Shown here: positions 13,522 through 13,975 of the stretch, piece by piece
How the letters are laid out: each line of letters starts with the position of its first letter
Position numbering within the stretch: position 1 is the stretch's first letter
Assembly: GCF_003334385.1 (NCBI RefSeq)
Contig: NZ_QOWN01000064.1
Reading direction: 5' to 3' (one strand)
DNA length: 16,737 nucleotides
DNA from: Escherichia coli
Lineage (GTDB): Bacteria > Pseudomonadota > Gammaproteobacteria > Enterobacterales > Enterobacteriaceae
Made by a program: the position numbers and the translations under genes
Notes under the pieces: generated by a model
Databases searched by the model: none
What the model saw: only the letters and a program-made list of their open reading frames with translations
Told to the model about the DNA's origin: nothing

Positions 13522-13568
13522 TCCTCACCTCGCAAAAACTCTCACCTCACAATCACAACAAAACCGGT

Positions 13569-13667
13569 CATGTCCGGTTTTAGTGTCTATTTTTTGCGCA
13601 TGTCCGGTTCATGGAAAGCATGTTTTTATATTTTTCATATGGTTAACTTGCAGAGAAACCGGACATG
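13569..13667. promoter_or_regulatory. cosB-like terminase-binding region: three copies of the 11-mer CATGTCCGGTT (two direct, one inverted)
   Basis: Exact copies at 13569-13579, 13599-13609 and, inverted, 13657-13667, with an AT-rich spacer (possible IHF site) between the second and third. Sits between cosN and the Nu1 start, as cosB R1-R3 do in lambda. Confidence 0.7.
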
Positions 13668-13704
13668 GATCCCGGAAAATTTTCATAAATAGTGAAAATC
13701 CGCG

Positions 13705-13716
13705 AGGTCGCCGCCC
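13705..13716. other. cosN cohesive-end sequence (reverse complement of lambda GGGCGGCGACCT)
   Basis: The reverse complement of 13667-13716 begins GGGCGGCGACCTCGCGGATTTTCACTATTTATGAAAATTTTCCGG, nearly identical to the remembered lambda left end; flanking 13718-13750 resembles the lambda right end (CGGGTCCTTTCCGG.GATCC). Confidence 0.85.
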
Positions 13717-13975
13717 CGTAACGGCCCGGATCGCCGGAAAGGACCCGGCAAAATGATAATGATTGTCAGTTGCAACAAAATCCAGTTTCTTCCACCATCG
13801 CACCGGACCAGCGACCATGAGGGGACAACGCCGCGCTCCGTTAACGCGGTAAACCCCGGTGTGTATCGTTTTTGATTATCCCCGCACACTCGCGCAGAGG
13901 AGTCTCCCGGTCGGGCTGCGGTCTCTGTTAATGCAGGAATACGGCGACAATACCGCGCATGGATAATAAGGTCGC

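What the first reader, a model, noticed from the sequence alone, without database searches (positions are those of the whole stretch)
13522..13750. Intact lambda-type cos site with a distinct cosB repeat set matched to a divergent Nu1 DNA-binding domain
cosN and about 45 bp beside it are almost identical to lambda, but the terminase-binding repeats are a different 11-mer (CATGTCCGGTT, 2 direct + 1 inverted), and the Nu1 N-terminal domain differs from lambda while its C-terminal half is lambda-like. This is the co-variation expected for a packaging-specificity switch, as between lambda and phage 21. Because cos is internal to a contiguous sequence, the DNA is in prophage or circular form with late genes and lysis cassette joined across cos.
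Basis: partly seen in the sequence, partly recalled or inferred. Interest (0 to 1): 0.45.

Follow-up and report, generated by a model that had tools for sequence, protein, structure and literature searches.

The report
Lambda-type cos with non-lambda cosB boxes
This is the DNA-packaging start site of a lambda-like prophage of E. coli: the cutting site matches phage lambda, but the neighbouring recognition boxes and the protein domain predicted to read them belong to a different class that is very common and, as far as I could find, has never been tested.

Summary
On the minus strand lie cosQ (GGGTCCT), a 12-base cohesive end identical to lambda and phage 21, and bp 1-46 that match each at 43/46. 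From bp 47 similarity drops to chance. They occupy R3 / IHF-like site / R2 / R1 positions, just before a 169-aa Nu1-type small terminase gene.

Only residues about 49-165 of that protein look like Nu1. The N-terminal winged helix-turn-helix has no BLAST or Pfam match to lambda or 21, although profile comparison and a predicted structure place it in register.

Comparison supports a matched pair. The boxes are nearly invariant in 79 related loci while the spacers drift. Distant phages of Aeromonas, Pseudomonas and E. coli with the same N-terminal domain also carry TCCGGT boxes in the cos-to-TerS leader, at about the same distance from the cohesive end in the two records that show that end. Sister phages with the same cosQ/cosN carry lambda-type or 21-type cassettes instead.

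The cassette occurs in 1154 of 5426 complete E. coli genomes and in plaque-forming PhiR12 phages. It is an ordinary lambda-type cos with a further, untested specificity class. Binding and cleavage are inferred.

The parts
13739..13745 (-). cosQ (GGGTCCT), the packaging-termination subsite, at bp -29 to -23 from the nick
   Evidence: Identical to lambda and phage 21. Invariant in 45 distinct variants.
13705..13716 (-). cosN: the 12-nt cohesive-end sequence GGGCGGCGACCT. The predicted nicks lie before 13716 and after 13705, and phage bp 1 = window 13716.
   Evidence: 12/12 identical to lambda and phage 21. One variable column among 45 variants. The nick positions are inferred by analogy with lambda.
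13673..13687 (-). I2 segment (bp 30-44). It includes TATGAA at bp 30-35, the stretch reported to be critical in lambda.
   Evidence: bp 13-46 match lambda at 31/34. The phage 21 record annotates I2 at the equivalent position. PMC4856287 reports that replacing bp 30-35 is lethal in lambda.
13657..13667 (-). R3-equivalent box CATGTCCGGTT (bp 50-60), with the core TCCGGTT at bp 54-60
   Evidence: Invariant in all 45 variants. It sits at the position of lambda R3 (bp 50-65, contacts at bp 55-63; PMC9026076).
13633..13645 (+). I1-like candidate IHF site TTTCATATGGTTA (bp 72-84), followed by an A/T tract, between R3 and R2
   Evidence: It has 2 mismatches to WATCAANNNNTTR. That is the same quality, and within two bases of the same position, as the lambda match taken to be I1. 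It aligns with lambda and 21 I1. Only 2 of its 13 columns vary among the variants.
13599..13609 (+). R2-equivalent box, inverted relative to R3 (bp 108-118)
   Evidence: Five of 79 loci carry a point change and one carries a 30-bp R2-R1 fusion.
13559..13582 (.). R1-equivalent near-palindrome. It holds a perfect box at 13569-13579 (+) that overlaps the one-mismatch box CATGACCGGTT at 13562-13572 (-).
   Evidence: It also scores as a terminator-like hairpin on both strands.
13524..13552 (-). Nu1 leader with two Shine-Dalgarno-like 12-nt repeats TTG(T/C)GAGGTGAG. The proximal repeat serves the GTG start.
   Evidence: The copy number and the leader vary among relatives.
13357..13521 (-). N-terminal winged helix-turn-helix DNA-binding domain of the small terminase (aa 1-55). 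The predicted recognition helix is aa 15-22.
   Evidence: AF2 pLDDT is 92 for the full-length model and 82 for the domain alone. The highest query-normalised TM-score is to the lambda TerS structure 6hn7_B (0.67, rmsd 2.5 A), but Foldseek E-values are not significant. hhalign places it in register with lambda Nu1. There is no Pfam Phage_Nu1 or BLAST match.
13012..13521 (-). Small terminase subunit (Nu1 family), 169 aa, GTG start
   Evidence: Pfam Phage_Nu1 E = 1.4e-18 over aa 49-150. PHROG 57 'terminase small subunit' covers aa 1-169. It has the same start as the CDS annotated in PhiR12_1.
11112..13040 (-). Large terminase subunit (gpA). The start is ATG 13040 (MNIS...), overlapping the end of Nu1. 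The first ~27 codons belong to the divergent cassette.
   Evidence: PHROG 15. DNA homology to phage 21 resumes at window 12958.

Best explanation
This is a working lambda-type cos site. Its cosB and small-terminase DNA-binding domain form a matched recognition pair of a class different from lambda, 21 and N15.

Proposed mechanism. A dimer of the N-terminal winged helix-turn-helix domains of the small terminase (TerS) reads the TCCGGTT core of the boxes. The box at bp 50-60 (R3) sits at the same distance from the nick as lambda R3. TerS bound there would position the large terminase (gpA), held by the C-terminal part of TerS, to make the staggered nicks that yield the lambda-identical cohesive end GGGCGGCGACCT. 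IHF bound at the I1-like site between R3 and the inverted R2 would bend the DNA so that a TerS dimer can bridge the two boxes. R1 would add affinity. cosQ acts at termination.

The cassette of cosB, Nu1 and about 27 codons of gene A has been exchanged by recombination. It now sits within a head-tail gene module about 88% identical to phage 21, downstream of a lambda/21-type cosQ-cosN.

What is shown: the sequence anatomy, the conservation, the co-variation, the fold prediction and the distribution. What is inferred: binding, bending, cleavage, and the absence of cross-packaging with lambda and 21.
For: Anatomy and position.
- cosQ and the cohesive end are identical to lambda, and bp 1-46 match at 43/46.
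- The boxes lie at bp 50-60, 108-118 and 138-148, with an IHF-like site at bp 72-84. Lambda R3 spans bp 50-65 and the order is R3-I1-R2-R1 (PMC9026076).

Constraint.
- Among 45 distinct variants from 79 IMG/VR loci, R3 is invariant.
- The boxes vary four-fold less than the rest of cosB: minor-allele fraction 0.020 against 0.078, permutation p = 0.026.

Co-variation.
- Seven independent lineages with the closest N-terminal domains each have at least 2 TCCGGT hexamers upstream of TerS, each with P < 0.005. They are the window, two metagenomic relatives at 63% and 52% identity, one further metagenomic relative, E. coli phage 705R4, Aeromonas phiARM81ld and Pseudomonas LPPA33.
- By my count from the printed sequences, the 63% relative has the core at bp 54-60 and phiARM81ld at bp 56-62 of a record that starts at its cohesive end. 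The 52% relative has the lambda orientation pattern R3 forward, R2 reverse, R1 forward.
- No lambda- or 21-type locus has 2 or more.

Modularity.
- PhiR5_1 has a 21-like cosB and DNA-binding domain, but a C-terminal domain 60% identical to this one.
- Stx1a phages have lambda-type cosB/Nu1 on the same cosQ-cosN flank.
- DNA identity to all three falls from 72-100% to background at about 13670 and recovers at about 12950.

Protein.
- hhalign between this family and lambda/21-like Nu1 gives probability 99.9, in register through the helix-turn-helix. The window has R19/K23 where lambda has Q20/E24 and 21 has E20/S24, the known specificity residues (PMC4669245).
- The predicted fold is a winged helix-turn-helix.

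Function in vivo.
- The PhiR12 phages are 99.5% identical over the 401-bp cos region and 97-98% over the window. Their records list K-12 MG1655 or E. coli C as host.
Against: - There is no binding, bending or cleavage data. PMC6739421 notes that lambda TerS binds DNA weakly and non-specifically in vitro, so box assignment from sequence alone is the usual weak point.
- The virion ends of the PhiR12 phages are not recorded; cos is internal in those records.
- Here R1 has the same orientation as R2, whereas in lambda it matches R3. Only the one-mismatch overlapping copy has the lambda orientation.
- The fold-search E-values are not significant (0.3-3.6), as expected for a 55-residue domain.
- The conservation test is modest (p = 0.026), and the variants are closely related.
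- More distant relatives of the domain have TTCCG-type boxes rather than TCCGGT boxes.
- N15 terminase packages lambda DNA despite different boxes, so a difference in sequence does not prove a separate specificity.
Confidence: 0.8

Rival explanations
1. The cos site is real, but its packaging specificity is not distinct. This terminase and lambda or phage 21 terminase cross-recognise each other's cosB fully or one way, as N15 terminase does with lambda DNA.
For: N15 terminase packages lambda DNA at about a quarter of the self yield despite a different cosB (PMC4669245 Table 6). A gapped alignment shows a distant family resemblance among the R3 regions: window GTCCGGTTTCTCT, lambda GTTTCCGTTCTTCT, phage 21 GTGTCGGTACTTCT.
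Against: Ungapped identity in cosB is at chance level: 38/149 to lambda and 35/149 to 21, against 68/149 between lambda and 21, which already exclude each other by more than 1000-fold. The bases at the specificity positions bp 56 and 59 differ from both (window C/T, lambda T/C, 21 G/G). So do the helix residues aligned to lambda 20/24. The DNA-binding domain has no BLAST similarity to either.
Confidence: 0.12
2. The repeats are not TerS sites. They serve something else: a transcription terminator or attenuator hairpin at R1, or sites for a host or phage regulator. TerS would then recognise other bases.
For: The R1 near-palindrome scores as a terminator-like hairpin with a T tail on both strands. 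The RNA fold of the leader is only weakly better than shuffles, z = -1.8.
Against: R3 and R2 are single boxes with no hairpin partner nearby. Two variants replace the right arm of the palindrome, and relatives at 63% and 52% identity lack the palindrome but keep the boxes. In the records that include cosN, the TCCGGT core stays within a few bases of the same distance from the cohesive end, and it tracks the domain type across genera. A terminator would not be expected to do either.
Confidence: 0.05
3. The site is a fossil. The prophage is defective and cos/Nu1 are no longer used, so the conservation only reflects recent common descent.
For: All 80 IMG/VR loci returned encode a 99% identical Nu1, so the variants are close relatives. 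From general knowledge, many EHEC lambdoid prophages are defective.
Against: All head, tail and lysis ORFs in the window are full-length with strong family matches. The spacers in cosB do drift while the boxes do not. Five isolated phages carry the same cos/Nu1 at 99.5% identity.
Confidence: 0.03

Closest known systems
Phage lambda cos (cosQ-cosN-I2-R3-I1-R2-R1) with gpNu1/gpA terminase
   Same: cosQ and the 12-nt cohesive end are identical, and bp 1-46 match at 43/46. The order and spacing of subsites are the same: R3 at about bp 50-60, an IHF-like site at about bp 72-84, an inverted R2, and the Nu1 start at bp 196 against 191. TerS has the same two-part build (winged helix-turn-helix plus a gpA-binding C-terminal part, 46% identical over aa 73-164). 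The gpA is lambda-like.
   Different: The box sequence is CATGTCCGGTT, not CGTTTCC(G/T)TTCT. The DNA-binding domain has no BLAST or Pfam similarity. R1 is a near-palindrome whose perfect copy points the same way as R2. TerS is 12 residues shorter, with a shorter wing.
Phage 21 cos / gp1-gp2 terminase (21 packaging specificity)
   Same: It is the textbook case of the same cosQ/cosN with a different cosB and TerS recognition helix. The head-tail genes of this window are about 88% identical to phage 21 DNA. The 21 boxes (CATGTCGG) resemble the left half of this box.
   Different: 21 and lambda TerS are 52% identical along their whole length, helix-turn-helix included. This one is 32% identical to 21 overall, and its N-terminal domain cannot be aligned by BLAST. 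cosB identity to 21 is at chance level. Homology to 21 stops 27 codons into the large-subunit gene.
N15 / Monarch group (simple versus complex cosB sharing one recognition helix)
   Same: The same pattern occurs here within one domain class. The window and the metagenomic relatives L091 and L093 have a complex three-box cosB with an IHF-like site. 705R4, phiARM81ld, PhAER-1, LPPA33 and L100 have a simple cosB, a single tandem TCCGGTTCCGGT next to the TerS start.
   Different: The boxes and the recognition helix differ. N15 TerS matches this protein only over residues 59-164.
PICI cos sites read by Rpp-TerS (EcCICFT073)
   Same: A lambda-like cosQ/cosN is combined with a non-lambda cosB, and a winged helix-turn-helix protein of the TerS fold supplies the new specificity.
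   Different: Here the new DNA-binding domain is part of the phage's own TerS, and a complete head-tail gene set follows. No Rpp-like gene is involved.

Membership tests
Lambda-type cos site | 12-nt 5' cohesive-end sequence related to GGGCGGCGACCT, flanked by CG at the nick sites | tested here: met
   12/12 identical to lambda and 21. The flanks are ACG|GGGCGGCGACCT|CGCGG.
Lambda-type cos site | cosQ heptamer GGGTCCT about 23-29 bp upstream of the nick | tested here: met
   Window 13745-13739 = bp -29 to -23. Invariant in 45 variants.
Lambda-type cos site | cosB with an R3 box about 50-65 bp from the left end, an IHF site, an inverted R2, and R1 | tested here: met
   Boxes lie at bp 50-60, 108-118 (inverted) and 138-148, with an IHF-like match at bp 72-84. 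The caveat is the orientation of R1: the perfect copy points the same way as R2, and only the one-mismatch overlapping copy points the same way as R3.
Lambda-type cos site | Terminase actually nicks the site, and virions carry the cohesive ends | not testable with these tools
   Support is indirect only. Isolated PhiR12 phages carry the same cos, but their records are not cut at cos.
Nu1-family small terminase (Pfam PF07471) | Sequence match to the family profile | tested here: met
   The match is partial: E = 1.4e-18, covering only model positions 62-163 of 164, which is aa 49-150. hhalign to a lambda/21-like Nu1 alignment gives probability 99.9, E = 7e-36, over the full length. There is no NCBIfam hit.
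Nu1-family small terminase (Pfam PF07471) | N-terminal winged helix-turn-helix DNA-binding domain of the gpNu1 (MerR-like) fold | tested here: met
   The AF2 topology is strand, helix 4-10, helix 15-22, wing 32-36, helix 38-55, with pLDDT 82-92. Foldseek gives query-normalised TM 0.67 to 6hn7_B and 0.63 to 1j9i, and the other top hits are MerR, excisionase and RacA winged helix-turn-helix proteins, but E-values are 0.3-3.6. 16 of 39 family members hit Pfam HTH_17. This rests on prediction only.
Nu1-family small terminase (Pfam PF07471) | Gene lies immediately upstream of, and overlaps, a gpA-type large terminase gene | tested here: met
   gpA runs from 13040 to 11112 and overlaps the end of Nu1 by 29 nt.
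Lambda packaging specificity | R boxes CGTTTCC(G/T)TTCT with T at bp 56 and C at bp 59; recognition helix with Q20/E24 | tested here: not met
   The window has C56/T59 and R19/K23 at the aligned positions. R3-region identity is 4/24.
Phage 21 packaging specificity | R boxes with a C(A/G)TGTCGG core, G at bp 56 and G at bp 59; recognition helix with E20/S24 | tested here: not met
   The box has an extra C (CATGTCCGG) and lies about 2-3 bp nearer to cosN. R3-region identity is 4/24. The DNA-binding domain cannot be aligned by BLAST.
N15 packaging specificity | A single R3 of N15 type plus a remote rR2 inside gene 1; the N15 recognition helix | tested here: not met
   N15 TerS matches only aa 59-164. 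In the blastn search N15 DNA matches only the cosQ-cosN part. The N15 boxes themselves were not inspected.

The most novel reading that the evidence does not exclude
The TCCGGTT box and the 'MATQxEVAxHLxL(S/T)xRQ' winged helix-turn-helix domain form a fourth, self-contained packaging-specificity class of lambda-type terminases. The class is older and wider than the enteric lambdoids: it occurs in Aeromonas, Pseudomonas and E. coli phages and in metagenomes, with both simple and complex cosB forms. It has been grafted onto a lambda/21-type cosQ-cosN and a phage-21-like head-tail gene module in E. coli. EHEC genomes carry 2-4 copies, so one induced prophage could start packaging at every co-resident cos of this class. 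That would mobilise defective neighbouring prophages and flanking chromosomal or virulence genes.
Probability: 0.45. Interest if true: 0.5.

Novelty: new member of a known kind. Interest (0 to 1): 0.3.

Why it matters
Only three packaging specificities of lambda-type terminases (lambda, 21, N15) appear as experimentally tested in the papers I could read. This cassette is present in about a fifth of complete E. coli genomes, including O157:H7, O145 and O103 strains, often in several copies.

If it is a separate specificity, it decides which co-resident prophages, cosmids or islands can be packaged by which helper in Shiga-toxin-producing strains. It also offers a natural, highly diverged TerS/box pair for working out how the winged helix-turn-helix reads R boxes.

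The architecture and mechanism are those of lambda, so nothing here is conceptually new.

Tried and rejected
- Sequence search of PDB with the single protein found nothing relevant. Only a family profile reached lambda TerS, and weakly: 6hn7_B E = 0.007, 1j9i E = 0.78.
- NCBIfam gave no hit.
- Foldseek with the full-length model was dominated by long-helix alignments. I refolded residues 1-62 alone. The fold class is clear, but E-values stay non-significant.
- A literature search for the box sequence returned only p53 response-element papers and unrelated primers.
- Searches for cosB with O157 and for the PhiR12 phages found no description of this cos class. The 2015 Virology survey of N15-like cosB sites is not in the library, so prior mention there cannot be excluded.
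- The IMG/VR scan with the protein returned only 99%-identical Nu1. That set served for the footprint but not for co-variation. I therefore used the representative-protein search and contig look-ups.
- I considered the R1 hairpin as a terminator and rejected it as the main function. It is not kept in relatives that keep the boxes.
- The listed TTG start of gpA at 13097 was rejected in favour of ATG 13040 (MNIS...).
- The 110-aa ORF 13683-14015 that runs across cosQ/cosN was treated as probably spurious.

Full report
**What is in the sequence**

The window lies in reverse orientation to the lambda map. Read on the minus strand, 13750-13522 contains the following, in order:
- cosQ GGGTCCT at 13745-13739.
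- The cohesive-end sequence GGGCGGCGACCT at 13716-13705. I set phage bp 1 to window 13716.
- An I2-like segment.
- The box CATGTCCGGTT at 13667-13657 (bp 50-60).
- An A/T-rich stretch with an IHF-like match at 13645-13633 (bp 72-84).
- The same box inverted at 13599-13609 (bp 108-118) and again at 13569-13579 (bp 138-148).
- A short leader with two Shine-Dalgarno-like repeats.
- The GTG start of a 169-codon ORF at 13521.

An ungapped comparison gives 12/12 identity of the cohesive end with lambda and phage 21. Identity is 43/46 for bp 1-46 with each, and 26/32 and 25/32 for the 32 bases upstream. From bp 47 it collapses to 4/24 in the R3 region. Over bp 47-195 it is 38/149 to lambda and 35/149 to 21, which is chance level. 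Lambda and 21 share 68/149 there.

The 11-mer has three perfect copies and one one-mismatch copy in the whole 16.7-kb window, all within 106 bp (expected 0.42). The one-mismatch copy, CATGACCGGTT at 13572-13562, overlaps R1 in the opposite orientation. R1 is therefore a near-palindrome, AAAACCGGACATGACCGGTTTT.

**Context**

Downstream on the minus strand are complete genes for the large terminase, W, the portal, the protease/scaffold, the decoration and major head proteins, FI, FII, Z, U, V, G/T and the tape measure. Upstream are an endolysin and an Rz spanin with an embedded Rz1. So lysis and head genes are joined across cos, as in a prophage or a circle. The 401-bp cos region has 100% matches in E. 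coli chromosomes.

**The small terminase**

- Pfam Phage_Nu1 matches only residues 49-150, which are model positions 62-163 of 164.
- tblastn against 50,697 phage records aligns lambda, 434, phi80, N15, 21 and Gifsy-1 only from about residue 59-73 onward, at 34-47% identity.
- The N-terminal 55 residues have no BLAST, Pfam Phage_Nu1, NCBIfam or PDB sequence match.
- They are nevertheless a positional and probably structural equivalent of the gpNu1 DNA-binding domain. A profile of 47 full-length relatives aligns to a profile of lambda/21-like Nu1 proteins with probability 99.9, in register through the helix-turn-helix.
- AlphaFold2 predicts strand, helix 4-10, helix 15-22, a short wing and helix 38-55 with pLDDT 82-92.
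- The highest query-normalised TM-score of the isolated domain in the PDB is to lambda TerS 6hn7_B (0.67, rmsd 2.5 A). Next are 1j9i and 5i44_I (both 0.63). The other top hits are MerR, excisionase and RacA-type winged helix-turn-helix proteins. Foldseek E-values are not significant for so small a domain.
- In the profile alignment the window has R19 and K23 where lambda has Q20/E24 and phage 21 has E20/S24. These are the residues shown genetically to set lambda/21 specificity (PMC4669245).

**Are the boxes functional? Three lines of comparative evidence**

First, a phylogenetic footprint. Seventy-nine IMG/VR loci encoding a 99%-identical Nu1 give 45 distinct upstream sequences. cosQ, cosN and R3 are invariant or nearly so. 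R2 and R1 are nearly invariant. The spacers between the I1-like site and R2, and between R2 and R1, vary at most positions. The mean minor-allele fraction is 0.020 in the boxes and 0.078 in the rest of cosB, with permutation p = 0.026. Seventy-two of the 79 loci keep all three perfect 9-mer cores. Five have a point change in R2. One (L012) has a clean 30-bp deletion fusing R2 and R1. One has its R1 core at the edge of the stretch that was scanned.

Second, position. R3 occupies bp 50-60 and its TCCGGTT core bp 54-60. Lambda R3 spans bp 50-65, TerS contacts bp 55-63, and the cosN-to-R3 distance is critical (PMC9026076). There is no indel between cosN and R3 in any variant.

Third, co-variation across distant phages.
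- The representative-protein search found only 287 clusters with E of 0.001 or better. About 45 of the 150 listed share the N-terminal domain.
- I read the DNA upstream of twelve such genes.
- Seven independent lineages carry the closest domains. Six of them share the PG(A/F)P motif after the recognition helix. All seven have two or more TCCGGT hexamers upstream, each with P < 0.005 against shuffles. None of the lambda- or 21-type loci does.
- A metagenomic relative with 63% identical TerS has lambda-like cosQ/cosN, GGATGTCCGGTTT with the core at bp 54-60 by my count, an A/T-rich stretch and an inverted AACCGGACATG.
- A 52% relative has a different cosN but TTTCCGGTTCCGGTT forward, AACCGGAAATG reverse and CTTCCGGTTGG forward. 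That is lambda's orientation pattern.
- E. coli phage 705R4, the Aeromonas phages phiARM81ld and PhAER-1, Pseudomonas phage LPPA33 and another metagenomic contig have a single tandem TCCGGTTCCGGT just upstream of the TerS start.
- In phiARM81ld, whose record begins at a lambda-like end GGGCGTTAGACC, the box is at bp 56-68 by my count.
- More distant members have TTTCCGTTTCCGC-like tandems at roughly the same place (L095, L097, L098).
- So a simple and a complex cosB coexist within one domain class, as described for N15 and Monarch.

**Modular exchange**

- The 401-bp query finds lambda-type and 21-type phages only over its first about 130 bases, which hold cosQ, cosN and I2.
- Stx1a-converting phages carry lambda-type boxes and Nu1 after that point. 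PhiR5_1 carries 21-like boxes and a 21-like N-terminal domain.
- The PhiR5_1 C-terminal part is 60% identical to the window protein over residues 64-165, with no similarity before that. Cluster P0005 is a similar chimera.
- Sliding identity to lambda-type, 21-type and PhiR5_1 DNA is 72-100% down to about 13670, background through cosB and the 5' half of Nu1, and 70-88% again from about 12950.
- The whole-window search shows about 88% identity to phage 21 from the tape-measure gene up to window 12958, which is 27 codons into the large-subunit gene.
- From general knowledge of lambda terminase, the N-terminus of gpA is the part that binds Nu1. The exchanged cassette is therefore cosB, all of Nu1 and the Nu1-binding tip of gpA, about 700 bp.

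**Distribution and prior knowledge**

- The cosB plus DNA-binding-domain segment (293 bp) is present at 80% or more coverage in 1154 of 5426 complete E. coli genomes.
- There are 1915 places in all, up to four per genome. They include O157:H7, O145 and O103 strains and ATCC 43894. PGAP annotates them as 'terminase small subunit' or 'hypothetical protein'.
- Among phage records only the five PhiR12 isolates carry it, at 99.5% over the cos region and 97-98% over the window.
- The papers I could read list lambda, 21 and N15 as the tested specificities. I found no paper describing this box. The 2015 Virology survey is not in the library.

**Mechanism proposed**

The mechanism is lambda's own, carried over by inference. 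TerS dimers read the boxes through the recognition helix, residues 15-22. The R3-bound TerS anchors gpA at cosN. IHF at the I1-like site (2 mismatches to the consensus, as for the lambda match at the equivalent position) folds R2 back onto R3. cosQ serves termination.

Which half of the 11-mer is read is not known. The cross-genus conservation points to TCCGGTT. CATG is specific to the enteric complex form.

**Rivals**

- Shared or one-way specificity with lambda or 21 is possible in principle, on the N15 precedent, but unlikely given chance-level cosB identity.
- A terminator role for the R1 hairpin cannot explain R3 or R2, or the co-variation.
- A fossil site is unlikely given intact genes, spacer drift and the isolated phages.

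**Verdict**

The thing is an ordinary lambda-type cos with a further specificity class that is widespread, already sequenced many times and functionally untested. Binding, bending and cleavage remain inferred.

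Noticed in passing
window 13559-13582: The R1 near-palindrome scores as an intrinsic-terminator-like hairpin (8-9 bp stem, 6-nt loop, T tail) on both strands, just upstream of the small terminase gene. It might also damp read-through across cos in the prophage state.
   Followed up: partly
window 13524-13552 (- strand): Two 12-nt Shine-Dalgarno-like repeats TTG(T/C)GAGGTGAG lie 17 nt apart in the Nu1 leader. Among related loci, one variant has lost one unit and two variants have an unrelated 92-nt leader.
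   Followed up: partly
L012 (IMG/VR), upstream of its Nu1 start at 1501: A natural variant has a clean 30-bp deletion that fuses R2 and R1. This looks like unequal crossing-over between the direct boxes, the kind of unequal crossing-over between R boxes that the literature proposes (there between R3 and R1) for deriving a simple cosB from a complex one.
   Followed up: partly
L086 (PhiR5_1) 1273-1821; protein P0005: These are chimeric small terminases. They have a lambda/21-like N-terminal domain joined, around residue 60-80, to a C-terminal part 60-67% identical to the window protein. This implies a recombination joint inside the gene.
   Followed up: partly
L095, L097, L098 (about 50-65 nt after their cosN-like sites): More distant relatives of the DNA-binding domain, with the 'GVLP' motif, have tandem TTTCCGTTTCCGC-like boxes instead of TCCGGT boxes, at roughly the same place. 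This may be a graded series of box variants.
   Followed up: no
window 14286-14471 (- strand): An Rz1-type lipoprotein ORF is embedded out of frame in the Rz spanin gene (14224-14697). It has a signal peptide ending LVVSAC and a proline-rich mature part.
   Followed up: no
window 13976-14200 (- strand) and 13683-14015 (- strand): A 74-aa ORF of unknown function (PHROG 2571) lies between Rz and cos. A 110-aa ORF runs across cosQ and cosN and has a partial match to a PHROG labelled 'Rz-like spanin'. The second is probably spurious.
   Followed up: no
window 1-12958: The head and tail genes are about 88% identical in DNA to phage 21. The homology stops 27 codons into the large terminase gene. The real start of that gene is ATG 13040 (MNIS...), not the TTG at 13097 given in the ORF list.
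   Followed up: yes
E. coli complete genomes: Up to four copies of this cosB/TerS cassette occur per genome (median 2), including in O157:H7 strains. Co-resident prophages therefore probably share one packaging specificity.
   Followed up: partly
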